In this document: piece by piece, positions 7,982 to 50,453 of the stretch
Layout: every line of letters begins with the position of its first letter
Numbering within the stretch: position 1 is the first letter of the stretch
Assembly (NCBI GenBank): GCA_965197475.1
Contig: CBDANF010000003.1
Coordinates: 2,816,001 to 2,880,000 of the forward strand
Length of the DNA: 64,000 nt
Direction: 5' to 3'
Origin: Candidatus Poribacteria bacterium
GTDB lineage: Bacteria; Poribacteria; WGA-4E; WGA-3G
The notes under the pieces: model-generated
The model's database searches: none
What the model saw: only the letters and a program-made list of their open reading frames with translations
Told to the model about the DNA's origin: nothing
Program-made: the position numbers and the translations under genes

Positions 7982-8721
7982 TTCAACGCAACCCTGAGAT
8001 CCTTTGCCACCTCCTCAAGTGATCTGCCCTTAACTTTTCCAGATTCATAATCAGCGATGCTGCGATTCAGTTGTTCAGCAACTTCAGGACATATCTCAAG
8101 GCCTTCGTCGGGATCGCACTCATAATCCTCCAAGAACTGTTCCAATTCCAAATGGCACACGAAAAATTCATAAAACGCTGATTGCAACTGTACATGATTT
8201 ACAGGCGATGAGGGTTCCTGCGTTAACGTAACCACTTGCTCGCGCGCGGCAAATAGTTCTGAGTTCACGAGTGTCTCCGTTAGTGCGCGGAATTCGTTAT
8301 CAGATAAATCTGCTACCTTTATCGGAGGTAGATCATTATCAGGAATCCCTCCGAGTCTTCGTGTCATCCGTTCCATAGGAGAGGTTTTCCGCTCAGATTC
8401 AACGGCTGCTACGCGCTGTTTCAGATGTGCAAACTCTTCAGATACTTCCAAAACCGTAAGCACACATGCTTCCTGCACATCCAACTCAAATGCCAGATCA
8501 TAGGAATAGGATTCAAAAAATTCTCGGAAACCTTCTGCCAGCGTTTCACGGGCAGCGTTCTGTGCAAGCAAGGCTGCAAGCTTATCGCGATCTGCAAATA
8601 GTGGTTCATTCACTATTGAATTGAACCATTCTCGGAATTGCGTGGGAGTCATGTCTGTCAGAGGTAATTTCGTTTTGTTTGAGTTCATTGACATTTCCTC
8701 TATGGAACGATTTTCCTTCAC
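7969..8721 (-). CDS. Putative antitoxin with duplicated N-terminal helical module
   Basis: Overlaps the toxin start. Acidic C-terminal DPDEGLE...SLEEVAKDL antitoxin-like tail. Confidence 0.6.
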   Translation of the reverse strand: MKENRSIEEMSMNSNKTKLPLTDMTPTQFREWFNSIVNEPLFADRDKLAALLAQNAARETLAEGFREFFESYSYDLAFELDVQEACVLTVLEVSEEFAHLKQRVAAVESERKTSPMERMTRRLGGIPDNDLPPIKVADLSDNEFRALTETLVNSELFAAREQVVTLTQEPSSPVNHVQLQSAFYEFFVCHLELEQFLEDYECDPDEGLEICPEVAEQLNRSIADYESGKVKGRSLEEVAKDLRVALKCTD

Positions 8722-37780: not shown

Positions 37781-39025
37781 TGTACTGCCACCGGAAATTC
37801 GGGCCACTCTCTAAGACAAGATTATGGTATAATATCCATCTCCTTGAAAGGAGTATCCGATGGCGAAACGAAAACGAAGAAACTTCACCCCCGAGTTTAA
37901 AGCCGAAGTTGTTCTTGAGGCTCTCAGCGTTGAAAGTTCCCAAGCAGAAGTGTGTCGGCGACATAACCTCATCGATGAACAACTTTCAAAGTGGAAGCGA
38001 CAGCTTCTTGAAAAAGCGGCGACCCTCTTTGAACCCGCTGATAAACAGTCTGATGCCTCTGCGGAGCGGATCGCCCAACTTGAGCAACTCGTTGGGCGGT
38101 TGACCTTGGCACTTGACATCCAAAAAAAAGCCTCAACTTACTTGAGTTAGCCTCGATGGAGCAGCGAGAAATGGTTACGGCATTACGGACAGACTTTTCG
38201 GTTCGGCAGATATGTGAGACACTCGGTTTCAACCGAAGCAACCTCTATTATCACTCCAAGCAGGCCCCGTGTGAAGCGGGCCTCCAGGATGAAATAGAGA
38301 CGTTATCTTTGCTATATCCAACATACGGATATAGGCGTCCCACACAGTTGTTGGTGCGTAGCGGATACACCATCGGGTATAAACGTGTTGCCCGATTGAT
38401 GAAGTCCGCCAACCTCTCGGTTTCTGTCAAGCGTGTCTGTCAAACCACGACATCCGTTGCGGGTGTGCGTCCCTGGAGCAATCGCCTTGAAAACCTTGAT
38501 GTCTCCCGATGTAATCAGGTCTGGGTGGGCGATATTACCTACGTCCGCCTCAAAGGACACTTTATCTATGTTTGTCTGCTCATGGATGTCTTCACTCGCA
38601 TGATCAGAGGGTGGCATATCAGTCAACACTTGACGCAATCTCTGACGTTGAAACCCTTGGAGACAGCATTATGTCAAAGTGTCCCAGAGATCCATCATTC
38701 TGATCAAGGCGTTCAATATCTTTCAAATGCGTCCATCTCACTGCTTAGGCATCATGGGATTAAGATTTCAGTCGCCCGGAGAGGGTGTCCTTGGGAGAAC
38801 GGATATGCTGAAAGACTTATCCGCACGCTCAAGGAAGAAGAAGTTCATCTCAATGACTATGAGGACATCCACGAAGCAAGAACCCGCATTGGGCATTTTA
38901 TTACACAAGTGTATAATCACAAACGCCCTCACTCTGCGTTAGGGTATTTGACACCTGTGGAATTTGAGCAAAAAAACTTGTCTTAACTTTGCTAAATTTT
39001 GGTCTGAATAAACGGTAGCACTTCA
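37781..39025 (+). mobile_element. IS3-family element, copy 2 (1245 bp)
   Basis: Near-identical to 33479-34723. orfA 37860-38150, orfB 38156-38986, 3-bp TSD TAA. Confidence 0.95.
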
Positions 39026-39242
39026 TAATGTTTGTTTATATTCAAATCTGTAATTAGGATGCTATCTCATGCTATAAAAGTCAAGGAAAATGGACACAGC
39101 AAAAACGCATTTTCATGGTGCTATACCTTGTTTCTATTGATTATTATTAGGTTCAAGACTATTCTGAGAAATATCAGTAAGTGTTATCATTACCGCAACT
39201 GAAATATGATGCAGCGCAGTTCAGAGGGTATCCCGCTAATTC

Positions 39243-39590
39243 TTGCATCATTATTTAACCAATACCCTCAAGAAAGATACTTGGTTGTATATGACAGCTA
39301 CCTACGATGGGGTGGATACCTTTAAAATCTATGAAAATGGAACAGAGTTCACTTCAGTCGGTGGTTTCGGCGGTCCTCCGCCCAGGGATACATCGGAAGT
39401 CAACATCGGTGGTTGGACGAACAACACTACAGAAACTCTTAACGGTATGCTCTATGATGTCGCGATTTTCAACGTCGCGCTGTCCGAGGAGGATATAAAC
39501 TCTTTGATGGACAAAGGTATTGCAGGGTTACTGCCAGTTGAGCCTGCTGGTAAACTTGCAACTACATGGGGAACTATCAAATCTCGGTAA
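39243..39590 (+). pseudogene. C-terminal fragment of a LamG/concanavalin-like protein with VEPAGKLATTWG tail
   Basis: WLYMTATYDG...LYDVAIFNVALSEEDI. No RBS or signal peptide (5' part missing). Confidence 0.75.
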
Positions 39591-39611
39591 TATACGCTTC
39601 CTTTTCCAATT

Positions 39612-39639
39612 AGGGCGTAATGTTTTTGTGTTACGCCCT
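39612..39639 (+). terminator. Hairpin after the LamG fragment
   Basis: AGGGCGTAA...TTACGCCCT. Confidence 0.5.
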
Positions 39640-39885
39640 CCCTCCAATCCTTAGTTTCAAATTAGATCATAAAGACATACCAAATCATCCCTTCGAAACC
39701 AACGCTATATTTAAGATGAAAGAAGAACACCGCGTTGAAATCCTATAAGTACATTTCTGATCACCCAATCTGGCTGCACCGCAGAACTTTGTGTCTCTCG
39801 AATCGGTGTGCCAATAGATGTTCCTGCATCATTGTGTGAGATAGCAGATTGACTACACATTCTTTGAAAAACAATCAAATCGTAT

Positions 39886-42110
39886 ATGGAGATGGCTATG
39901 GCAAAATTACCGAACATTTTACTTATTCTCGCTGACGATCACGGGTATGGCGATATCTCGGCGCACGACGGACCGTCAATTCAAACACCACATATTGATA
40001 GGATTGCTGCACAGGGAACGCGTTTTACGCAATTCTATGCGAATTCTTCTGTTTGTTCCCCAAGCCGTGCATCCCTCATGACTGGACGCTATCCTGATAG
40101 AGCGGGTGTCCCCGGGGTGATTCGCACCCATGCACAGAACAACTGGGGTTACTTTCGACAAGACGCTATCACGTTGCCTTCAATGTTAAAACAGAAAGAT
40201 TATCGCACATCGCTCATCGGAAAATGGCATTTGGGGCTTGAAGATGAGAATCACCCGTGCAAACGAGGTTTTGACCATTTTCACGGTTTCCTCGGTGATA
40301 TGATGGACGATTATTACATGCATCTACGACATCAAAATAACTATATGCGGCACGGTTTTGACACGATCGATCCGAGGGGGCACGCCACTGACCTCTTTAC
40401 GGACTGGAGCGTGGACTTTATTCGAACAGGACTTACGCAGTTTTGAAGATTATTGAAGGATTAGAGAGTTGATGTCGTCCGTAATCATCCAATAAACTTT
40501 GTTTGAGTTCGTAAATCGTTTGAGTGATTTTCCGGGCAGCACGCTTCAAGCAGACCCAGACCTGGAAACAACACGCAATATGGTTTCGTTGGGCACGCAG
40601 TTTGCGGCATTGACATTTGTCAATACCGGTTAATTGTTTGATTTCACGATGAAGTTGCTCAATCTTCCAGCGAACCCGACACTGTTGTTTTGTCGCTTTC
40701 GCATCCGATTGAGATAAATCGTTTGTCACAATATATTCCGTGCGTCCTGTATCAGACACAATCCGGAACAACTTCACTTGATACCCTTTTGGAAACCTTT
40801 TGATATGCACGCGTTTGCCTTGTGTCGTTTCTGATGGAGACCAAGATAAATCTTTTTACTTGCTGGTGCGGTTCAACACCATCCGTATCATTTACAAGCC
40901 TGTTTCGTTTCAGGGGCGCATAGTAGACCTTGGAAAGTGCCGCAATCGCTTTCATTACTTTCATGGATACATACCAAGCATCCATTAGCACTGTCCGAAA
41001 CGAGAGTTGTTTCTTGAAGTAAGCATCGTGCAACATATCAAGTAAATGATCAATTTTGGATTTACCATCAGGGTCTTTGTCAAAAATGCGGTAATCAATG
41101 ATCCAATACTCGTGTGTCTTTGGGTTAACATAGACACACGTGACAATACCGATGCCTTCAATGACCTTTTTGTCGCTACCACTCCATTGAGGGTAGGCAG
41201 CTTCAATCAGTTTTGAATATATTTTTGACAGCACAACATCGTCAAAGATAAGGTATCCATCTTTATCAAACGCAATGTCGTCTTTGACAGATTCCCAGAG
41301 TTCGCTTGAAGGAATGTTTTCGTTTCTCAGGAAACGATTGAGTTGATCATGGCTCCACTTCTCCGTATGGTTTGCAAAATAGGTTTGTGTAAAATTAGTG
41401 AAACTCGCTAACAAAAATTGACAATAATCAGAAAATAAGTGGTGCTTCTTTTTAGAAAGTGTAAATGTAGTCATAATAGAACAGTATAACATAATTGTAG
41501 ATTATTGCGTAAGTCCTGTCGAACTCACGCACATACATCTCATCCTTTTTTCCTCTATCTTGCATATAACGCACCGCATACACCAATTCAACCGCCTGAA
41601 GATTGGATCGAACGCGTGAGGGAACGTGAACTGGACATTTCACCCCAGCGTGCCAAATACGTGGCACTCGTTGAGCACATGGATGCGGGTATCGGAAGGG
41701 TACTTGATACGCTTGAGGAAACTGATCAGCTTTCCAATACGCTTGTAATCTACACATCAGATAATGGAGGAGCGATGCAGGTCGGTGCACATAACGGTCC
41801 GCTACGCGGGCAAAAAGGTGAGATGTACGAAGGCGGGATCCGAGTGCCTACGTGTGCTATGTGGCAAGGGCAGATACCAGAAGGACATGTTACGGATCAG
41901 GTAGCGATGCTTATGGATATCTTTCCAACGCTATGCGAGGTAGTTGATGTTCCTATCAAACACGAAATTGAGGGACGTTCAATTTGGCAAACGCTTCAAG
42001 GCGAAGAACAGGATTTCTCCGAACGCCTCCTTTATTGGTTGCGGAGAGAGGGAGGACAACAGTTTCACGGTCAGTGTCAACATGCCATTCGGCGTGGCGA
42101 TATAAAGTTA
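39886..42110 (+). pseudogene. Sulfatase interrupted by an IS701-like element and truncated by IS1595
   Basis: CSPSRASLMTGRY and GKWHLG motifs. Frame resumes at 41524 (PFFLYLAYNAPH, SDNG, YEGGIRVP) and ends at the IS1595 TIR. Confidence 0.9.
40427..41518 (-). mobile_element. IS701-like element with frameshifted transposase (ORFs 41492-40752 and 40810-40433)
   Basis: TIR CAGGACTTACGCA and 5-bp TSD TCGAA. LIFDDVVL, LMDAWY and RWKIEQLHREIKQ motifs. Confidence 0.9.
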
Positions 42111-42328
42111 CGCAATGAGTAGTTTTGGACTTGAGAAAAATTTTAAAAAATCGCTATAAAGCCTTGTGTCCACTGGGTTTATATGGTATAATATAGATAA
42201 GAAAATAGGGGGTTGGTAGCCCCCTAAATGAACACAAAAAGCGAGTTGCTTTTTGACGGTTCTAATCTTATCTGGTATTATATCAGAAATCCGTCAGAAA
42301 AAGCAACTCCTATTTCAAGGAGTTATCT

Positions 42329-43211
42329 GATGGATTTGTTGAAGGTGATGGAGCGTTTTCCCGATCAAGAGAGTTGTATTTCGCATTTAGAGAAGATTCG
42401 GTGGCGAGGTAAACCTGTGTGTCCGCATTGTGAAAGCGATCATATAGGAGAACGGACAGAAACAGAAATCGGTCGTATCGGTCGTTGGAACTGCCACGAG
42501 TGCCAAGTGAGTTTCAAGGTGACGTGCAGGTCGGTGTTTCACGGGACAAAGATAGCGTTACAGAAGTGGTTTTTGGCTATTTCGTTGATAACGAATGCGA
42601 AGAAAAGTTTGTCAAGTCATCAACTTGCGCGCGATTTAGACTTGAATCAAAAGACAGCATGGTATATCATGACTCGTATCCGTGCTGAAATGGCAAAGAA
42701 AGGTAACGTGCTACTACAAGGCATCATAGAGGCAGATGAAACTTACATCGGGGGTAAACCTCGTAAGCCTAATAAGAAGGAAGACCACGTGCCTGCCAAG
42801 CGTGGACGTGGAACAGAGAAAGACGCTATTATCGGGGCAGTACAGCGGGGCGGGAAAGTTGTAGCACAACTCGCTAAAGATTTGACAGGACGGACTATTT
42901 TAGACTTTATCCGAAGAGTCGTCAAAGTTGAGGATTCGGAGTTGATGACCGATGAGTATAAGGCGTATCTCGCTATCGGCAAGGAGATGAAACACCATAT
43001 CATAGATCATCAAACGCAATTTGTTGAGGGTGATGTCCACACAAACACAATTGAGGGGTTTTGGAGTCTACTCAAACGAGCTTGGTATGGAAGTCATCAC
43101 CACTACTGGACTGAATATACGCCCCTGTATGTAGCAGAGGCGTGCTATAAATACAACTATAGGAGCATTGACAGTATCTTTGATAAGTTTGTTAATGAAA
43201 GTATGCGGTGA
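42329..43211 (+). CDS. IS1595 transposase
   Basis: CPHC...CHEC Zn ribbon, EADETY, TDEY and NTIEGFW. Confidence 0.93.
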
Positions 43212-43549: not shown

Positions 43550-44063
43550 CTAATACCCGTATGGAGAATCAGCAGCTGAAATTAAAATTATCCAAAGTCC
43601 CACCATAGTGCCAGTTCCAATAACACATCCTATTGTAGCATGTGTTATTTGGTCGTTTTTCACAAGTTTTTGATAAATGCTTGTGTAATAAGCAACCTGA
43701 TATTTCTCAAAAGCACTCAGAAATCAGTATCTATCTATGGTCTCTCAATACGCGGTTATGAAAATGCTAAAAAATACTAATTGATAAACCTCCATTATGT
43801 GAAAAAAGCACTTTATTTTCAATACAAAATAGAATAAATTGTCCATTAAATGGGTTTTTTATTGGTGTGACAACATACGCAATTAACATACCGGTAACAC
43901 CAAGTAGACAACCAACAGTTCCCCATATTTGAGTGTTTGCAAGTGTTGCATCACGTCGTGCATCAAATATTGCTTGCGCAGCATCACTTGTTTGTTGTGC
44001 AAGTGTGAGATATGGCGTAGTGAATAACATCACAACCATTATAAACGACAAAGTTTTCATCAA
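43550..44063 (-). pseudogene. Passenger membrane gene disrupted by a 165-bp IS-end remnant (43697-43861)
   Basis: Compared with the intact copy at 1054-1443, 41 bp are replaced by 165 bp. Confidence 0.85.
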
Positions 44064-44262: not shown

Positions 44263-44850
44263 AGTATACCTCACTTTGCTTGAGATAAATTGGTGCATAG
44301 CGTATTTCCAGTGCGTTATGCACTGTTCAAGCATATAAAATTGATACGTTAAACGGGTATCGTTCGTAGGTTCGTTTACACCTTTCTATGGGTGAGGGCA
44401 GGACACAACACAAGGAGTGTTGCGATAGAAATCCTGCCCAACGAACTTGAGAATAGTATAACATGGAAAGAATTTGAGTGTCAAGTGAAAAATTTGAGAA
44501 AAAATTTCAAGTCCAAAACTACTCATTGCGTATATTTTTATATATGTTATTGTGAACACATGAAAAAGACTAAGCAACGGGTTTTCCCTCATTTTACGAC
44601 AGAAGTTCTTACGCTTCCAACGACAATTCGGAAATCTTTATCTTTGGCATAGGATCGCTTTCTAAGTACTCACTCATCCATCTGCCTATCCGTTCTTCAC
44701 GACTCGTTTTTCGATTGGCATGAATATACTCAAGGTAATGAGTCGATCACTTGAGGCAAAAAATCATCATGAGTAAGGCCTTGGAGCAATGCGTGGAATT
44801 CGCTACGGACATATCAGCAAGTTTTTCACAAGATTCACCGTTCATGTGTT

Positions 44851-46287
44851 TTGACATACTCCCCCAGCTAAAGCAAGGGGGATTCTTCTAAAAGAGAATC
44901 CCTTGCTTTCAGGTGCGGATTGTGGGTTTCCGACTTCGGTTGAAGTCTGCGAGGGTTGCTTGTGATCGCAAGTCTGATACCCTCTAATCCAAAGGTTAAT
45001 GCCCCAACCTTTACTATGTTTATAGCAGCATTCACGTCTCTGTGGTGATTAGTTGGACAACGATTACAAGTCCATTGACGTATAGACAAGTCCATTAGCA
45101 TTTGCTGTTGTCCGCAGGTGCTACAGTTTTTAGAAGTCGCTTCAAACCTATCAATATGATAGATTTCTTTACCATGTTTTGTGGCTTGGTGTTTCAACTT
45201 CAGGTGGAATGCATAGGGCGCAATATCAGAGACTTTACGCCCCCATAGACGCTTCATGCCTTCAAAGGTAAGCGTTTCAAAGCAGAGTGCGTCATATTTA
45301 TGGACAAACTGCTTGGCAAGTTTCCAATGGTGGTCGTCTCGTTTACGCCTGATTTTACGGTGAACACGTGCAGCGTCTTTTCGTGAACGCTCACGATTAT
45401 TGCTACCTTTAACTTTGCGTGAATGTTTGCGTTGTGCTTTCGTCAGTGCTGCCATAGAAGTTTTATAGAATTCAGGGGATGCGTAGAGTGTGCCGTCAGA
45501 ACAGGTGAACATTGTCTTCATACCGAAGTCAAACCCTGCAGCATGACCCGTCTTAGGTAGGACTTCGGAAACAGTGGGGTCTGACACGACAGACATATAG
45601 AAATCACCGAGACTATCTTCCTTTATCGTGATCGTTTTGATATTACCGAGTATAGGACGGCTAAGATTAAAACGATAGTATTTATCCTGTATCCGAACCT
45701 TATCACCATAGAAACCATAACCAGAGGGTGACAGAGTGAACGAATATGGCTTTCGCCATGAACGGAACTTAGGTGGACGCTTGGCAATACCGTCAAAGAA
45801 ACGCTTATGGTTTCCTATATGCAACCTTTTCAGTATCTGCCGGGCTGCCCACGAATCTAACTCACGCCAATGGGCAAACACTTCAGGGTGTGCCGGACGC
45901 AATATAGTGAACTGCCGAGACATTTCGTTATAGGACATATACGGCAGTCCAAGAGCGTAGCGAGCCCGTTGCCAGCCTAAAAAGTAGTTCCATATATCGT
46001 GTGCTATCCACGTTAATCGCTTCAAATTACGATTACGTCTCGCACGAAAAAGTTTGTCCAATGTGCTATACATGGTATATCAAGTATCAAGTTTTTAACC
46101 CCTAATGAGTGAGTAGGCAGACACGTAACCTTGCGATTACGCTCATTATGTCTGCCAACTTGATACTCTAATTATACTACATTTTAGACCGAAAATCAAA
46201 CCTTTTTCTACAAATGTTTGGTCTAATTAACGAGGGCGAGACTGTATCCCCGCCTTAAAAGGCGAGGTTTTAGTCTCGGAGGTTTTG
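44851..46287 (-). mobile_element. IS200/IS605-family TnpB-only (IS1341-like) element
   Basis: Minus-strand right end ...GGGGGAGTATGTCAA with hairpin. Left-end hairpin CCCCGCCTTAAAAGGCGAGG, preceded by TTTAT. No tnpA. Confidence 0.88.
44868..46073 (-). CDS. tnpB: RNA-guided endonuclease TnpB, RuvC triad apparently intact
   Basis: GFDFGMK (D), LCFETL (E), Zn finger CSTC...CNRC, HRDVNAA (D). Confidence 0.92.
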   Translation of the reverse strand: MYSTLDKLFRARRNRNLKRLTWIAHDIWNYFLGWQRARYALGLPYMSYNEMSRQFTILRPAHPEVFAHWRELDSWAARQILKRLHIGNHKRFFDGIAKRPPKFRSWRKPYSFTLSPSGYGFYGDKVRIQDKYYRFNLSRPILGNIKTITIKEDSLGDFYMSVVSDPTVSEVLPKTGHAAGFDFGMKTMFTCSDGTLYASPEFYKTSMAALTKAQRKHSRKVKGSNNRERSRKDAARVHRKIRRKRDDHHWKLAKQFVHKYDALCFETLTFEGMKRLWGRKVSDIAPYAFHLKLKHQATKHGKEIYHIDRFEATSKNCSTCGQQQMLMDLSIRQWTCNRCPTNHHRDVNAAINIVKVGALTFGLEGIRLAITSNPRRLQPKSETHNPHLKARDSLLEESPLL

Positions 46288-46900
46288 ATAAAAGAGGGAC
46301 AATTTTGGAGGATTCTTTATCGCATATTTCACGCGTGCACAGGCTTGGCAGCGGCACCGCATTTTTCAGAGAGGGGTTTTCGGTAGATAGACAACGTCTA
46401 AAATAGGGACGGAAAGTTTTTTTACATCACGATACCCGATTCCTATTTTCGTTTTCATGTAAAATACAGAAAAAGTTGTCAGATCAAATCACCTAACCGT
46501 ATGGGTTTATCCAATGTGTCAAAATTCACACATAAAACAGTTATACAACGCTATTAGTGAGATTTTGGATACCGAATTCTGCGTGTTTGATAAAATATCA
46601 ATACCAAAAGAAATAATACTCAAAACGCCCAACCATAGTGCTTTCCCGTAATCAAGAAACTTCTGATTTCAATGTAAGCGTTTCGGTGTCAACAGCAGTG
46701 ACTTTCACCAGTTTCAATCTCGTAATCGAGTAACTTCTGATTTCAATATTGAGCAGATTATCAATCCTCCGCCTGAATATGTGAAGTTTCAATCTCGTAA
46801 TCGAGTAACTTCTGATTTCAATATGAACATCATGACGACACAGACACAATCAATTGCTATGATGTTTCAATCTCGTAATCGAGTAACTTCTGATTTCAAT

Positions 46901-47180
46901 TCATCATGGAGTGGTCGTAAGTATGCTCGGCAGCCTGGATAATCTGATGGATATATGGATAGTCTTCAGCGATTTCGCTATACCAGCCGTCTTTGACATC
47001 TTCGTCTGTCCAGATGTCCTTGAATTCTGCGCCTTCTGCGGGTGAGCCGATGGGGGCTTTGTATTGTTTCTTTGTGTTGAAAGGTGGATCAAGGTATATG
47101 AGATCCACCGTTTCGGAGTTCATGCCACGCATGATGTTAAGGTTGTCGGCGATGAAGAGGGTGCGGTTTTGGAGGTTCAT
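46901..47180 (-). pseudogene. N-terminal fragment of an N6/N4 DNA methyltransferase cut at the CRISPR repeat
   Basis: NRTLFIADNL...DLIYLDPPFNT. The stop codon is supplied by the repeat. Confidence 0.85.
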
Positions 47181-47190
47181 ATCATAAATA

Positions 47191-47457
47191 TTACGACAGT
47201 ATCTTAATATCTAAAAGTTCAAATCCTATACCTTCAGAACTTATATCAACAGTCACTGGTATAGGTTTCATTGAAGGAAGAACATCTTCTATAAGTTTCT
47301 CATTTCTTGTATAAAGCATTAACTGATGTTCCGCATCATTCTTAGGAGGGAAAAAGCGAAAAAAAAGACCGAAAAGAGGACCCGTATTTGTATTATATTG
47401 GTAAACATCAGTTATGGATCCTGTTAATGTACCTCTATTTGGATATATAAAAGACAT
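47191..47457 (-). CDS. Hypothetical protein (88 aa) in the CRISPR-bracketed insert
   Basis: AGGAG RBS, complete ORF. Confidence 0.65.
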   Translation of the reverse strand: MSFIYPNRGTLTGSITDVYQYNTNTGPLFGLFFRFFPPKNDAEHQLMLYTRNEKLIEDVLPSMKPIPVTVDISSEGIGFELLDIKILS

Positions 47458-47521
47458 CTATTTCTCCTTATTGAAGGTTGTCGGCTATGAAGAGGGTGCG
47501 GTTAGGGATTTGTTGGTTCAT

Positions 47522-47983
47522 TTATCGCCATGTTTGAAGTCTTTTATCAAAATTATTAGCTTCTGCTATACACCAAGCAGGTAAGTCGTCTTTAGACCAA
47601 TGAGCGGGGCTTAGTTCGACAGAGTAAACTGGTATACCAGGTGCGACAAAATCATAAATTGCAAAATAAAACTTAGGCACACGTCGTTGTAAAGATGAAG
47701 CAATTGAAACCCATTGGTCTTTTGTGCCATCTTTGAATTTAATACCAAGAACAGTCACAAAAATACGCCATTCCCAATCATCGTTTTTACCAACAATGAC
47801 AACATCGCCTAATGCGCGTAGTTCTCGCTTAAGATGGCTTTCAATTATAATTTGTTCAGTTTTATCTTCTTTTTTTGCATGGACATACACATACACCTTG
47901 AATGTCTTAGGTTCAGGAGCGTAGGCGTTGCCTATGAATACAGCGGAGAGTAGAAGGATTGTGAGTACTAATGATCGTTTCAT
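47522..47983 (-). CDS. Secreted hypothetical protein (153 aa) in the CRISPR-bracketed insert
   Basis: Signal peptide MKRSLVLTILLLSAVFIGNAYA. Confidence 0.72.
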   Translation of the reverse strand: MKRSLVLTILLLSAVFIGNAYAPEPKTFKVYVYVHAKKEDKTEQIIIESHLKRELRALGDVVIVGKNDDWEWRIFVTVLGIKFKDGTKDQWVSIASSLQRRVPKFYFAIYDFVAPGIPVYSVELSPAHWSKDDLPAWCIAEANNFDKRLQTWR

Positions 47984-48060
47984 GGATCACCTTTTATGAA
48001 GAGGGTGCGGTTAGGAATTTGCAGAGGCATAGGAGAAGTTTACATTGTGTGTTATGGTCA

Positions 48061-48444
48061 TTATTTTTCAAAGTTGCTATCTGAGGACACTGGAATACGA
48101 GTACCAATAACACCGTATCCATCATATCCTTCGATCGGTTTTGACTCACCATCCTTTTCAGAACGAAGATCGTATATTTGCTTGCCAGATCTAATTGCAC
48201 TGATTATCTTTTCAAATAAAATCAGACAATCATCTTTACTATGAAAGCCTGCAAAAATATAATAAGTCTCAGAATCATTTGAGAATTTGCCATCATGGAA
48301 TTTTTGAACACCTAAACAGTATGCATCTTTATCGTTAGACTCTTTTACTTTATAAACAACGATTGAGTCATGATTATTTATATTGATAGCAAGAGTATCA
48401 ATAAATTCATTTCTTGTATAAGAATGTTCCAATATTATTAACAT
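48061..48444 (-). CDS. Hypothetical protein (127 aa) in the CRISPR-bracketed insert
   Basis: GAGGTG RBS, complete AT-rich ORF. Confidence 0.62.
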   Translation of the reverse strand: MLIILEHSYTRNEFIDTLAININNHDSIVVYKVKESNDKDAYCLGVQKFHDGKFSNDSETYYIFAGFHSKDDCLILFEKIISAIRSGKQIYDLRSEKDGESKPIEGYDGYGVIGTRIPVSSDSNFEK

Positions 48445-48515
48445 GCTAATTCACCTCTTACAGAATTAAATATATTGCATTAAAGCATTAACAAAATAGT
48501 TAATCCACTTAAATT

Positions 48516-48748
48516 ATGCCAACACCACAAGATGTTATCTGGGAAAGGGATTTAATACCTTACATACATGTCACACTGCTGGGTGAGGACATCACAGCCG
48601 ATTTGCTTTCAGAAAACAATCAAGGTATTGAGGGTATAGAACTGACGCTTGATTATCCGCAACTGAACGTTTTCAAAGCATCGAACATTATCCTTACACT
48701 TGCGAACGATGATGGACGTTTCTCACCTGATAACACCAGCAACTTTTT
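48516..48748 (+). pseudogene. N-terminal fragment of a probable phage tail/structural protein cut at the CRISPR repeat
   Basis: LTLANDDGRFSPDN resembles phage minor tail proteins (inference). The ORF then runs into the repeat sequence. Confidence 0.5.
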
Positions 48749-48785
48749 GTTTCAATCTCGTAATCGAGAAACTTTTGATTCCAAC

Positions 48786-49045
48786 TTACGTCTCGCACGA
48801 AAAAGTTTGTCCAATGTGCTATACATGGTATATCAAGTATCAAGTTTTTAACCCCTAATGAGTGGGTAGGCAGACACGTAACCTTGCGATTACGCTCATT
48901 ATGTCTGCCAACTTGATACTCTAATTATACTACATTTTAGACCGAAAATCAAACCTTTTTCTACAAATGTTTGGTCTAATTAACGAGAGCGAGACTGTAT
49001 CCCCGCCTTAAAAGGCGGGGATACAGTCTCGGAGGTTTTGATAAA
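48786..49045 (-). mobile_element. Truncated second copy of the tnpB element: left end, upstream region and first ~14 codons
   Basis: Matches 46033-46292 (offset 2753) with about 6 differences. Starts at the base after the repeat. Confidence 0.9.
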
Positions 49046-49345
49046 TACAACATATCCTAATACAATCCATCAGTGAGATCAATGTTTTTAGAATATTAAT
49101 GAATATTTACTATTTCTTCAAACAATTGGATAAAAGAGTCGGAACCACGTCACTAATCGGTTGAGAACAATCAGGGATTCTAACCTAACGCATTGGATAA
49201 CGGTTAACACATGCGCGTTTCAGAGATCGCAGTTCCGACCCACCTAAGGAGGCATATTTAGTAATCCGCAATTTCTATGCCAACGGAAAAGGGTGGCATT
49301 CGGTGGAGCGTGCCCTGCTACTTTTAAGGACACACTTCATCTATT

Positions 49346-50251
49346 TTAATTTGAATCCGAAAGTTCTTCTCCAACAATTAGCCGATATGCCTCTCGGTAT
49401 TTCTCGCTCGTTTTAGTAATCACAGTGTCCGGTAACTCAGGTGCTGGCGGTTGCTTGTTCCATCCGATCTCAGAAAGATAATCCCGAACAAACTGCTTGT
49501 CAAAACTTTGTTGTGGCTTTCCGGGTTCATATAAAGCGGCGGGCCAAAACCTTGAGGAATCAGGTGTAAACACTTCATCAATCAAGATCAATTCACCCTC
49601 TCGTTCACCGAATTCAAATTTTGTGTCACATAGGATGATACCTGAGTTTTCGGCATGCCTACTTGCCACCTTGAATAGCGCGAAACTGATATCAATTAGT
49701 CGATCGGTCAGATCAGTACCAACCTGATCACGCATTTGGTCAATAGATATTGGTTCGTCATGCTCACCTTGCTCTGCTTTGGTAGTCGGGGTGAATAGAA
49801 GTTCAGGTAGCCGATCCGACTCGCGTAGTCCCGCGGGTAGTTTTTGTCCGCATATTTCTCCTATTTTCTGATACGAAGCCCACCCCGAACCAGCAAGGTA
49901 ACTCCGCACAACACATTCAATATCAACGCGCTTAGCTTTCTTGACAAGCATTGAACGTCCATTTAAAAGGTCAGCATCAGCATGTAATGTGTCGGGATAC
50001 TCTTCGACTTCTGTTGAAATAAGATGGTTTTCTACGACAGATTTGGTGTAATTGAACCAGAATTTTGACAATCCGGTTAAAACTCTGCCTTTATCTGGAA
50101 TACCGTTCGGCAAGACAACATCAAAGGCAGAAATCCGATCAGTAGACACAATCAGAAATTCATCACCGAGATCGTAGAGATCGCGGACTTTACCACGATG
50201 TGCAGGACTTAAGTTTGTTAATTGTGTAGACGTAATAGTTTTTTGAGGCAT
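49346..50251 (-). CDS. purC: SAICAR synthetase
   Basis: HRGKVRDLY, TDRISAFD, DTKFEFG, DEVFTPDSSRFW and SFDKQFVRDYL. Confidence 0.96.
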   Translation of the reverse strand: MPQKTITSTQLTNLSPAHRGKVRDLYDLGDEFLIVSTDRISAFDVVLPNGIPDKGRVLTGLSKFWFNYTKSVVENHLISTEVEEYPDTLHADADLLNGRSMLVKKAKRVDIECVVRSYLAGSGWASYQKIGEICGQKLPAGLRESDRLPELLFTPTTKAEQGEHDEPISIDQMRDQVGTDLTDRLIDISFALFKVASRHAENSGIILCDTKFEFGEREGELILIDEVFTPDSSRFWPAALYEPGKPQQSFDKQFVRDYLSEIGWNKQPPAPELPDTVITKTSEKYREAYRLIVGEELSDSN

Positions 50252-50453
50252 ATTTCTCTCCTAAAAAATTTCTTAAGTATCACATTACTCTTTTAGCAGA
50301 TTTTGAAGCACAACTACAGTCTTTACCACGATGTGCAGGACTTAAGTTTGTTAATTGTGTAGACGTAATAGTTTTTTGAGGCATATTTCTCTCCTAAAAA
50401 ATTTCTTAAGTATCACATTACTCTTTTAGCAGATTTTGAAGCACAACTACAGT
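50188..50453. repeat. Perfect 133-bp tandem duplication
   Basis: 50188-50320 = 50321-50453. Spans the TPR gene 3' end, the intergenic region and the purC 5' end. Confidence 0.9.

What the first reader, a model, noticed from the sequence alone, without database searches (positions are those of the whole stretch)
48749..49045. CRISPR leader replaced by a tnpB left end/promoter fused precisely to the first repeat
Seen: the ATTGAAAC 3' end and the degenerate repeat at 46637 orient the array on the minus strand, so the leader should lie right of 48785. Instead there is a 260-bp copy of the IS200/IS605 left end, upstream region and first ~14 tnpB codons, in the same orientation and cut at the base next to the repeat. 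This is the third repeat-precise junction in the locus. Inferred: the transposon promoter may now drive array and cargo transcription. Alternatively, 48786-48822 was a spacer against the tnpB element that recombined with its target.
Basis: partly seen in the sequence, partly recalled or inferred. Interest (0 to 1): 0.72.

Follow-up and report, generated by a model that had tools for sequence, protein, structure and literature searches.

The report
CRISPR remnant nested in tnpB transposon
A leftover piece of a CRISPR array, in a genome with no cas genes found, sits inside a tnpB insertion sequence whose duplicated left end meets a repeat to the base, most likely a scar of recombination between a spacer and the transposon it targeted.

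Summary
Bases 48786-49045 copy 46033-46292 (254 of 260 identical): the target motif, end hairpin, promoter, structured 5' UTR and first 41 nt of the only tnpB gene in the genome. The copy starts at the base next to the repeat at 48749-48785. Five relatives with type I-D cas genes have a conserved leader plus cas2 on that side, so the leader is indeed missing.

Three points change the picture:
- The whole block 44851-49040 is one insertion. Relatives G003, G020 and G008 have an uninterrupted site. The copy is therefore the outer left end of the transposon, and the array piece, cargo and a second left end lie inside it.
- The 48749 repeat is not decayed. It equals the 43-copy consensus of relative G020's type I-D array.
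- No cas gene, leader or other array was found in this genome, so the array is an orphan.

Best explanation (inferred): a 36-nt spacer matching tnpB nt 6-41, where a GTA PAM fits, recombined with the transposon. No such spacer was found in any search. Promoter capture is plausible but untested: a conserved promoter-like site exists, and RNA-library contigs cover the cargo only. Interest is moderate.

The parts
44851..49040 (-). Whole inserted block: a composite bounded by the outer left end (LE') and the right end (RE) of an IS200/IS605-family tnpB element
   Evidence: In relatives G003, G020 and G008, window 44737-44850 abuts window about 49043-49290 directly. The uninterrupted site reads ...CATGTGTT|AAAACTACAACAT... 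in those genomes.
44851..46287 (-). Inner complete tnpB insertion sequence (1437 bp), from RE at 44851 to LE at 46287
   Evidence: Copies 91-92% identical spanning window 44850/44851-46207/46214 lie at three other sites in G003 (2) and G020 (1). The LE alignment places the element start directly after TTTAT/TTTAC.
44868..46073 (-). tnpB gene, 401 aa; the only tnpB-like gene found in the genome
   Evidence: Pfam OrfB_IS605 and Cas12f1-like_TNB. PDB match to ISDra2 TnpB chains 8h1j and 8bf8 at about 2.6e-33, with D, E and D aligned at the three RuvC motif positions in the printed alignment to 9yyg. tblastn against the own genome finds one locus only.
46033..46292 (-). Copy A of the 260-nt repeat: TTTAT target (46288-46292), imperfect LE palindrome (46237-46278), promoter, 5' UTR and tnpB nt 1-41
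46293..46636 (.). 344-bp unique stretch between the terminal degenerate repeat and the inner LE (flank of the array's trailer end)
   Evidence: No homologue in 39 other genomes of the genus except one 54-nt match at 82%. None in the fetched loci. A 33-nt probe across its edge found nothing in metagenome contigs or genome contigs.
46637..46900 (-). Trailer end of a type I-D-like array: degenerate repeat 46637-46673; repeats 46711-46747, 46786-46822 and 46864-46900; spacers of 37, 38 and 41 nt
   Evidence: Short-read contigs of X1 and X3 bridge 46263-46739.
46901..48748 (-). 1848-nt non-spacer 'cargo' between two repeats: a methyltransferase N-terminal fragment (46896-47180), ORFs 47191-47457, 47522-47983 and 48061-48444 (all minus strand), and a truncated plus-strand ORF from 48516
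   Evidence: Homologous pieces occur in G004, G031, G023 and others. Homology stops at the repeat edges.
48749..48785 (-). Single repeat of a second variant, identical to the 43-copy consensus of relative G020's type I-D array
   Evidence: all 52 G020 repeats listed. The 40 repeats next to G020's leader are of this variant.
48786..49045 (-). Copy A' (the finding): tnpB nt 1-41 (48786-48826), covarying 5' UTR structure (48837-48919), promoter-like site (48924-48952), perfected 18-bp hairpin (48990-49031), LE terminus 49040 and TTTAT target 49041-49045
   Evidence: Its outer flank continues into the sequence that relatives have at the uninterrupted site.

Best explanation
Structure (shown): 48786-49045 is the original left end of a tnpB-only IS200/IS605-family insertion that landed 5 nt upstream of a gene start in an intergenic region near purC. 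Behind its first 41 coding bases, a 2753-nt unit has been inserted. The unit holds one leader-proximal-type I-D repeat, 1.85 kb of non-spacer DNA, the three-spacer trailer end of an array, 344 bp of flank and a second copy of the left end.

Origin (inferred):
1. In a donor cell or strain with a type I-D system, an array lay next to a copy of this element. The array carried a 36-nt spacer taken from tnpB nt 6-41.
2. Homologous recombination between that spacer and its target gave the repeat-precise joint tnpB(41)|repeat.
3. One route is that this looped out a 2753-nt circle, which then recombined into the element here through the shared 260 nt.
4. The other route is that it deleted the leader and cas genes between an upstream element copy and the spacer, and the resulting composite then transposed here.

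Present state: the array is an orphan, because no cas genes, leader or other arrays were found in the genome. The copy still carries an intact promoter-like site and 5' UTR pointing into the repeat and the co-oriented cargo ORFs. It may therefore transcribe them, but as a by-product rather than as a working CRISPR leader.
For: Shown:
- The 260-nt duplication has sharp ends.
- Relatives G003, G020 and G008 have an uninterrupted site whose edges coincide with RE (44851) and the outer LE (49040), with no duplication.
- Each tnpB-linked LE copy aligned (window A and A', the G003a/G020 shared site, G003b, G016, G008) starts directly after TTTAT or TTTAC.
- Leader plus cas2 lie on this side of the array in 5 of 5 relatives' arrays examined.
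- G020's cas set is type I-D: Csc2, Cas6, a Cas4-Cas1 fusion, Cas2 and a DEAD-box helicase.
- The own genome gives 0 hits for the Cas1, Cas2 and Cas6_C Pfam families and 0 tblastn hits for all 8 proteins of G020's cas locus.
- The repeat occurs only at this locus in the genome.

Supporting the inference:
- All three junctions of non-spacer DNA with repeats are precise. Spacer-target recombination gives this automatically.
- A GTA lies exactly 3 nt upstream of a 36-nt protospacer that ends at the junction. Thirty-six nt is the second commonest of 303 inter-repeat lengths in relatives (57).
- The type I-D PAM is GTN or GTH in Synechocystis and Microcystis (PMC10212523, passages read).
- Recombination between targeting spacers and phage genomes is reported (bioRxiv 10.1101/2020.10.09.333658, discussion passage citing Varble 2019 and Watson 2018).
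- A single crossover of a circle, or a deletion followed by transposition, reproduces the observed order A'-X-A exactly.
Against: - No spacer matching the element or the cargo was found. None of 298 relatives' spacers of 60 nt or less, from 5 arrays, matched by more than 16 nt.
- The repeat|tnpB junction pattern had 0 hits in metagenome contigs and genome contigs.
- None of the 12 inter-repeat sequences shown for run X3 matches it; 37 more were not shown.
- The donor locus was not found.
- The PAM test is weak. One GT in the right register has roughly an 18-36% chance, depending on the spacer lengths allowed.
- The PAM test fails for the cargo's left end: no GTN for spacer lengths 33-42. It is probably not met at the right end either, judged from relatives' homologues that are about 70% identical.
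- The PAM comes from cyanobacterial systems and was not measured for this genus.
- The junction itself is not bridged by the short contigs laid.
Confidence: 0.5

Rival explanations
1. Promoter capture with a function. The transposon's promoter now replaces the CRISPR leader and drives expression of the repeat, the cargo genes and the array, and this arrangement is maintained by selection.
For: - A promoter-like site, TTGATT-17-TATAAT, lies at 48952-48924 on the minus strand (10 of 12 matches).
- The -10 box is invariant and the -35 conserved as TTGA(C/T) in the aligned left ends.
- All four cargo ORFs and the array are co-oriented with it.
- No minus-strand terminator-like site is predicted between it and the array.
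- RNA-library contigs match 47480-48725 with 0 differences in two runs.
Against: - No cas genes were found, so array transcripts have no processing enzyme or effector.
- RNA contigs give no strand, no start and no bridge over 48785/48786, and zero cover on 46210-47336. DNA carry-over in those libraries cannot be excluded.
- Other promoter-like sites lie inside the cargo, for example 48401-48373.
- The scan found 20 promoter-like sites against 14.3 expected in shuffles, so a single match is weak evidence.
- The tnpB start codon in the copy opens only a 24-codon frame that stops inside the repeat (read).
Confidence: 0.2
2. Aberrant Cas1-Cas2(-Cas4) integration. The 3' end of a long DNA that ended at tnpB nt 41 was joined by half-site integration to the leader-proximal edge of the first repeat. 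Replication or repair then fixed the rearrangement, displacing the leader.
For: [quoted passage not shown]
- The repeat involved is of the leader-proximal variant.
- This route needs no spacer, which fits the failure to find one.
Against: - No in vivo precedent is known to me (recalled, not searched).
- It does not by itself explain the second left-end copy or the 2753-nt unit.
- The cargo is flanked by two different repeat variants that differ at 4 of 37 positions. A simple oversized integration would duplicate one repeat.
Confidence: 0.1
3. Illegitimate deletion or other rearrangement between an element copy and the array that hit the repeat edge by chance, or a misassembly at repeated sequence.
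For: - The region is rich in insertion sequences and decayed genes.
- The junction is not bridged by the short contigs laid.
- Relatives' arrays are also interrupted by long inserts of 4810, 2782, 383, 369 and 294 nt.
Against: - Three junctions in one locus are all repeat-precise. At roughly 2/74 each for random breakpoints, the joint chance is about 2e-5.
- There is no microhomology between the element at nt 41/42 and relatives' leader-repeat junction (read).
- The two 260-nt copies differ at 6 positions, so they are not one collapsed copy.
- The genome is assembled in 3 contigs.
- Two samples carry contigs for the neighbouring junctions.
Confidence: 0.1

Closest known systems
Recombination between targeting CRISPR spacers and the genomes they match (Varble et al. 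2019 Nat Microbiol; Watson et al. 2018 mBio)
   Same: A spacer serves as a short homology arm, and the product joins target DNA to the array exactly at a repeat edge. The phenomenon is stated in the discussion of bioRxiv 10.1101/2020.10.09.333658 (passage read). Varble 2019 was seen only as a reference entry; the paper itself is not held.
   Different: Here the inferred target is a chromosomal insertion sequence, not a phage. The product is a permanent chromosomal scar inside a transposon rather than a transducing particle. The spacer itself was not recovered.
tnpB-only IS200/IS605-family elements such as ISDra2 and IS1341-type elements
   Same: - TnpB with OrfB_IS605 and a zinc-ribbon/TNB domain.
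- Match to ISDra2 TnpB structures at 2.6e-33.
- Imperfect palindrome near the left end, and insertion directly 3' of a fixed pentanucleotide without target duplication.
- A right end that terminates in TCAA, as I recall for IS608.
   Different: - The element carries a 2.75-kb internal passenger and a duplicated left end.
- No tnpA lies in or beside it. Two Y1_Tnp matches lie elsewhere in the genome, and no other DNA there matches this left end beyond one 40-nt match at 82.5%.
- The outer hairpin has been made perfect.
Orphan or degenerate CRISPR arrays left after loss of cas genes
   Same: A short array with a degenerate terminal repeat in a genome where no cas genes were found.
   Different: It is not at the ancestral CRISPR locus. 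It lies inside a mobile element at a site that is uninterrupted in relatives.
Type V-U / early Cas12 loci (TnpB-like gene next to an array)
   Same: A tnpB gene and a CRISPR array sit 564 bp apart (46074-46636), on the same strand. [quoted passage not shown]
   Different: - The array lies upstream of tnpB, whereas conserved Cas12-array links have it downstream (same paper).
- The repeats belong to a type I-D family.
- The three closest element copies in G003 and G020 have no such repeats nearby: one search found none in G003, and in G020 only at its I-D locus.
- There is no evidence that TnpB uses the array.
Prophage integration into CRISPR repeats (phiAP1.1 of Streptococcus pyogenes)
   Same: Kilobases of foreign DNA lie between two repeats of an array (bioRxiv 10.1101/2020.10.09.333658, passages read).
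   Different: That integration uses an att core inside the repeat. Here the flanking repeats are each a pure variant (one of each type) rather than hybrids, and no integrase lies in the cargo.

Membership tests
IS200/IS605 family, tnpB-only element | Encodes TnpB (OrfB_IS605 RuvC-like core plus zinc-ribbon/TNB domain) | tested here: met
   Pfam PF01385 at 1.9e-22 and PF07282 at 1.1e-17. PDB TnpB chains 8h1j and 8bf8 at about 2.6e-33, with D, E and D present at the aligned RuvC motifs.
IS200/IS605 family, tnpB-only element | Insertion directly 3' of a specific short target sequence at the left end, with no target-site duplication | tested here: met
   TTTAT or TTTAC precedes the left end in window A, window A', G003a/G020, G003b, G016 and G008. 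Comparison with the uninterrupted site shows no duplication.
IS200/IS605 family, tnpB-only element | Subterminal imperfect palindromes at both ends | tested here: inconclusive
   The left end has an imperfect palindrome conserved in 4 copies (window A, G003 solo, G020 solo, G008). It is perfect only in A'. At the right end a hairpin at 44902-44879 was picked up by the terminator scan but was not compared across copies.
IS200/IS605 family, tnpB-only element | Y1 transposase TnpA available, in cis or in trans | tested here: inconclusive
   None in the element. Two PF01797 matches lie elsewhere in the genome (124 and 31 bits). Whether either recognises these ends is unknown.
IS200/IS605 family, tnpB-only element | Multiple copies at different sites (mobility) | tested here: met
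   Copies 91-92% identical lie at two sites in G003 and one in G020. The own genome has one full and one partial copy.
Type I-D CRISPR array | 37-nt repeats of the family used by type I-D loci, with the transcribed strand ending in ATTGAAAC | tested here: met
   The 48749 repeat is identical to 43 of G020's 52 repeats, next to Csc2, Cas6, Cas4-Cas1 and Cas2. The other repeats differ from it at 4 of 37 positions.
Type I-D CRISPR array | Leader with promoter next to the first repeat | tested here: not met
   The leader of about 190 nt conserved in 5 relatives has no homologue in the genome. The tnpB left end lies in its place.
Type I-D CRISPR array | cas genes in the genome | tested here: not met
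   0 matches for PF01867, PF09827 and PF01881, and 0 tblastn hits at E of 1e-3 or better for 8 proteins of G020's cas locus. The genome is 92.7% complete, so absence is probable but not proven.
Type I-D CRISPR array | Regular repeat-spacer units | tested here: inconclusive
   Three spacers of 37, 38 and 41 nt are regular. One inter-repeat stretch is 1848 nt of gene-bearing DNA.
Type V (Cas12 / V-U) CRISPR-Cas | Conserved association of the TnpB/Cas12 clade with an array, normally downstream of the gene | tested here: not met
   The array is upstream. The closest element copies in G003 and G020 lack repeats nearby. The criterion is from PMC10691335.
Type V (Cas12 / V-U) CRISPR-Cas | Effector uses crRNA from the array | not testable with these tools
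   Needs RNA co-purification or interference assays.

The most novel reading that the evidence does not exclude
The 4.19-kb block is a mobilisable IS200/IS605 composite that carries a CRISPR array fragment and passenger genes between a transposon left end and right end. It formed when a self-targeting type I-D spacer recombined with the tnpB element it targeted. If so, autoimmunity against a transposon can end with the array being swallowed by that transposon. That would be a natural route both for moving arrays between genomes and for placing a pre-existing array under a tnpB promoter next to tnpB, a starting arrangement proposed for type V systems.
Probability: 0.12. Interest if true: 0.7.

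Novelty: new variant of a known kind. Interest (0 to 1): 0.45.

Why it matters
- Evidence for spacer-target recombination comes mostly from laboratory phage work. If the reading is right, this locus is a natural chromosomal example in which the target is an insertion sequence.
- It shows that an array fragment can end up inside the ends of a tnpB transposon, co-oriented with tnpB and behind a copy of its promoter. That bears on how orphan arrays arise and move. More remotely, it bears on the 'transposon next to a pre-existing array' route to type V systems (PMC10691335).
- It also cautions annotators: a lone array without cas genes, and a 'first repeat' without a leader, can be passengers of a mobile element.
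- As it stands it is a scar with no demonstrated function.

Tried and rejected
Searches for the inferred spacer:
- 298 spacers of 60 nt or less, out of 303 inter-repeat stretches from 5 relatives' arrays, were compared with the window and the own genome. The longest exact matches were 14 nt in the window and 18 nt in the genome, with nothing on the element or cargo beyond 13 nt.
- Two apparent matches of G020 spacers to the junction were checked and were 11 of 36 and 16 of 39 identical, which is chance.

Searches for the junction elsewhere: the pattern of 9 nt of repeat plus 16 nt of tnpB had 0 hits in metagenome contigs and genome contigs.

Searches for the donor locus:
- The 344-bp flank had no homologue in 39 genus genomes apart from one 54-nt match, and none in the fetched loci.
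- A 33-nt probe had 0 hits in both large collections.

Targets of the three real spacers: 0 hits in viral contigs, so I could not derive a PAM for this repeat family.

Cargo as phage DNA: no match in 'phages' by blastn. PHROGs matched only the methyltransferase fragment.

A second example of repeat-precise cargo: G020's 4810-nt insert was searched across the genus. Only small repeated elements matched, so its native borders could not be read.

A non-coding RNA at the insertion site: Rfam at gathering threshold found nothing in the window or in three uninterrupted sites. At the E-value threshold, only hairpin-driven microRNA and sRNA look-alikes fell on the perfect palindrome.

Reads: the contigs do not bridge 48785/48786, and the RNA runs have no cover on 46210-47336. 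Neither is counted as evidence. High RNA depth on 48786-48946 is shared with other element variants in the community and cannot be assigned to this copy.

Repeat-repeat recombination with an element carrying a solitary repeat was considered for the cargo. I rejected it because the expected hybrid repeats would be the mirror image of what is seen, with further T-type repeats on the left.

Full report
OBSERVATION

The window lies in a 5.70-Mb genome of 3 contigs, 43.5% G+C.

The repeat finder reports one 260-nt direct repeat, 46033-46292 (copy A) and 48786-49045 (copy A'), at 98%. Base by base there are 6 mismatches, and identity ends sharply on both sides.

tnpB is 44868-46073 on the minus strand (401 aa). 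It matches Pfam OrfB_IS605 and Cas12f1-like_TNB and the solved ISDra2 TnpB chains at about 2.6e-33. D, E and D are present at the three aligned RuvC motifs.

A' therefore holds 219 nt upstream of the start codon plus tnpB nt 1-41. It begins at the base after the 37-nt repeat at 48749-48785.

The other repeats are 46637-46673 (8 mismatches, all in the left 21 positions), 46711-46747, 46786-46822 and 46864-46900, with spacers of 37, 38 and 41 nt. Between 46900 and 48749 lie 1848 nt of gene-bearing DNA.

ORIENTATION AND THE MISSING LEADER

Five genomes of the same genus carry large arrays of this repeat family: G034 with 102 repeats, G024 with 74, G007 with 66, G020 with 52 and G001 with 14.

In G020 the array is followed by a WYL regulator, a 958-aa protein without a Pfam hit, Csc2, a 251-aa protein, a DEAD-box helicase, Cas6, a Cas4-Cas1 fusion and Cas2. 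This is a type I-D gene set.

In all five genomes a conserved stretch of about 190 nt, then the end of cas2, lies on the side that corresponds to the right of 48785 in the window.

None of the five leaders has a homologue in the own genome.

The own genome also gives no match to the Cas1, Cas2 or Cas6_C families. It gives no tblastn hit for any of 8 proteins of G020's cas locus. The repeat occurs nowhere else in it. At 92.7% completeness the array is, very probably, an orphan.

1. One insertion. A search of 60 relatives with 44600-49400 showed that window 44737-44850 and window about 49043-49290 are adjacent in G003 and G020 (2 nt apart). In G008 and G029 they are close together.
   - Local alignment gives the uninterrupted site ...CATGTGTT|AAAACTACAACAT...
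   - In the window the same flanks enclose 44851-49040.
   - Everything between, including tnpB, both left ends, the array and the cargo, is therefore one insertion or a series of events inside one insertion.
   - Its two edges are the transposon's right end (44851, ending in TCAA in element orientation) and the outer left end A'.
2. True left end. Aligning the left ends of window A, window A', G003a/G020 (one shared site), G003b, G016 and G008 shows that every copy starts directly after TTTAT (TTTAC once). The flanks are unrelated beyond it. The five outermost bases of the 260-nt repeat (46288-46292 and 49041-49045) are thus the target motif, and the element proper is 44851-46287 (1437 bp). 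Copies 91-92% identical lie at three other sites in G003 and G020.
3. The 48749 repeat is intact. It differs from the other three at 4 of 37 positions, but it is identical to 43 of the 52 repeats of G020, including the 40 next to its leader. The window's other repeats resemble the variants at G020's trailer end. The locus looks like a much shortened array of the G020 kind: trailer end, a large insert, then one leader-proximal-type repeat.
4. Perfected hairpin. Four of the six A/A' mismatches cluster in one arm of the terminal hairpin. Copy A, two solo left ends (G003, G020) and G008 share the imperfect form. A' alone has a perfect 18-bp stem at 48990-49031. This is the signature of a template-switch 'correction' of a quasi-palindrome. 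A and A' therefore differ by about three events, and the duplication is recent. Whether the perfected hairpin is still a TnpA substrate is unknown.

HOW THE JUNCTION AROSE (INFERENCE)

The other two junctions of non-spacer DNA with repeats are also precise within 1-2 nt. Homology to relatives' methyltransferase gene runs to 46901. Homology to a small plus-strand ORF runs to 48748.

Random breakpoints would hit a repeat edge with a probability of roughly 2/74 each. A mechanism tied to repeat edges is therefore needed.

I favour recombination between a spacer and its target, because it gives such edges automatically. It also explains the whole order A'-X-A.

Suppose a donor array stood next to a copy of the element (repeat, spacer, repeat, cargo, trailer repeats, 344 bp, TTTAT, LE-tnpB) and held a spacer taken from tnpB nt 6-41. 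Two routes then lead to the observed structure:
- Recombination of that spacer with the neighbouring element loops out a circle of exactly the repeated unit (2753 nt). One crossover within the shared 260 nt then inserts it into another copy of the element.
- Alternatively, recombination with an upstream copy deletes the leader and cas genes, and the composite then transposes.

Both routes give what is seen. I cannot tell them apart.

In support:
- A GTA precedes a 36-nt protospacer that ends at the junction.
- Thirty-six nt is the second commonest inter-repeat length in relatives (57 of 303).
- Type I-D systems of Synechocystis and Microcystis use GTN or GTH (PMC10212523, passages read).
- Spacer-target recombination is documented (bioRxiv 10.1101/2020.10.09.333658, discussion passage). 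Varble 2019 itself was not held.

Against:
- The PAM match has an 18-36% chance expectation.
- The cargo's left end shows no GTN for spacer lengths 33-42. The right end probably shows none either, judged from distant homologues. Escape mutants would lack PAMs, so this is not decisive.
- No such spacer, junction or donor locus was found anywhere I could search.

An alternative tied to repeat edges is half-site integration by Cas1-Cas2 of a long DNA end at the leader-repeat junction. Its chemistry fits this joint, but it does not explain the second left end or the two different repeats around the cargo.

WHAT IT DOES NOW

A' keeps a promoter-like site, TTGATT-17-TATAAT (48952-48924, minus strand). 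Its -10 box is invariant in all 6 aligned copies.

It also keeps a 5' UTR structure that is intact in A'. I derived that structure by eye from the same sequences, so the controls flatter it. Even so, 99.4% of 180 cells pair, against 29-43% when the partners are slid by 1-3 columns. Six pairs show compensatory changes, four of them in one helix that crosses another helix as a pseudoknot.

The tnpB start codon opens a 24-codon frame that ends inside the repeat. The four cargo ORFs and the array follow on the same strand. No minus-strand terminator-like site is predicted in between.

Reads:
- DNA runs X1 and X3 (two samples, one study) carry contigs identical or nearly identical to the neighbouring junctions.
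- RNA-library contigs of a sponge metatranscriptome (X4, X5; one study) match 47480-48725 without a difference. They do not cover 46210-47336, have no strand, and do not bridge 48785/48786.

Transcription from A' into the cargo is therefore plausible and untested. A role as a CRISPR leader is excluded in practice by the lack of cas genes.

COMPARISON WITH KNOWN SYSTEMS

The element is a member of the tnpB-only IS200/IS605 group (see the membership table).

The array is of type I-D origin but fails the tests for a leader and for cas genes.

[quoted passage not shown] It does not meet the criteria: the array is upstream, it belongs to another type, and the closest element copies lack arrays.

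I found no paper describing an array fragment inside a tnpB element in the listings. Those were keyword searches of an open-access library and do not show absence from print.

VERDICT

The feature is best read as a recombination scar that nested an orphan type I-D array remnant inside a tnpB transposon. This is a new variant of known kinds of event and of moderate interest.

Noticed in passing
window 48837-48919 (and 46084-46166), minus strand: The tnpB 5' UTR, just downstream of the promoter-like site, has a conserved multi-helix structure. One 7-bp helix shows 4 fully compensatory pairs in 3 of 6 sequences and crosses an invariant 8-bp helix as a pseudoknot. An inner hairpin has a GCAA loop. 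There is no Rfam match.
   Followed up: partly
window 48990-49031 versus 46237-46278: The outer left-end hairpin has been converted to a perfect 18-bp palindrome by 4 clustered changes. Four other copies keep the imperfect form. This looks like a template-switch correction of a quasi-palindrome.
   Followed up: partly
window 47139-47184, 47474-47520, 47983-48030: The 5' end of a DNA methyltransferase gene (start codon plus 12-16 codons) occurs three times in the cargo. Each of the two shorter copies is followed by a different small ORF, as if cassettes had been stacked by recombination at the gene's start. The own genome has an 80% identical paralogue at C3:3483982-3484265.
   Followed up: partly
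window 44633-44850, minus strand: The transposon's right end lies 5 nt upstream of the start codon of a gene that is 233 aa in G003. In the window only the first few codons and residues 94-128 remain, so it is a pseudogene. A 40% identical paralogue lies at window 7996-8688.
   Followed up: partly
L035/L036 (G020), L028 (G007), L026 (G034), L029 (G001): Relatives' type I-D arrays also hold long stretches between full repeats: 4810 nt with a 1304-aa secreted-looking protein gene and 369 nt in G020, 2782 nt with transposase-like ORFs in G007, 383 nt in G034 and 294 nt in G001. G020's array also contains a duplicated spacer (two identical 36-nt units).
   Followed up: partly
window 50188-50453: A perfect tandem duplication of 133 nt (two copies, 100% identical) spans the start of purC (49346-50251, minus strand) and its upstream region.
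   Followed up: no
window 49132-49295 and 44610-44850: The intergenic sequence on both sides of the insertion is conserved at about 80-86% in many genomes of the genus. No Rfam family matches it, either in the window or at the uninterrupted sites.
   Followed up: partly
window 37860-43211: The upstream neighbourhood is rich in insertion sequences. It holds an IS1595-type transposase (42228-43211, Pfam), a transposase-like pair of ORFs (37860-38986), and what reads like a sulfatase gene split by minus-strand transposase-like ORFs (39886-42122). The last two are named by eye and were not searched.
   Followed up: no
window 43697-43866: A 170-nt stretch is 99.4% identical to a stretch about 7 kb beyond the trailer end of G020's CRISPR locus. 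It may be a small mobile repeat.
   Followed up: no
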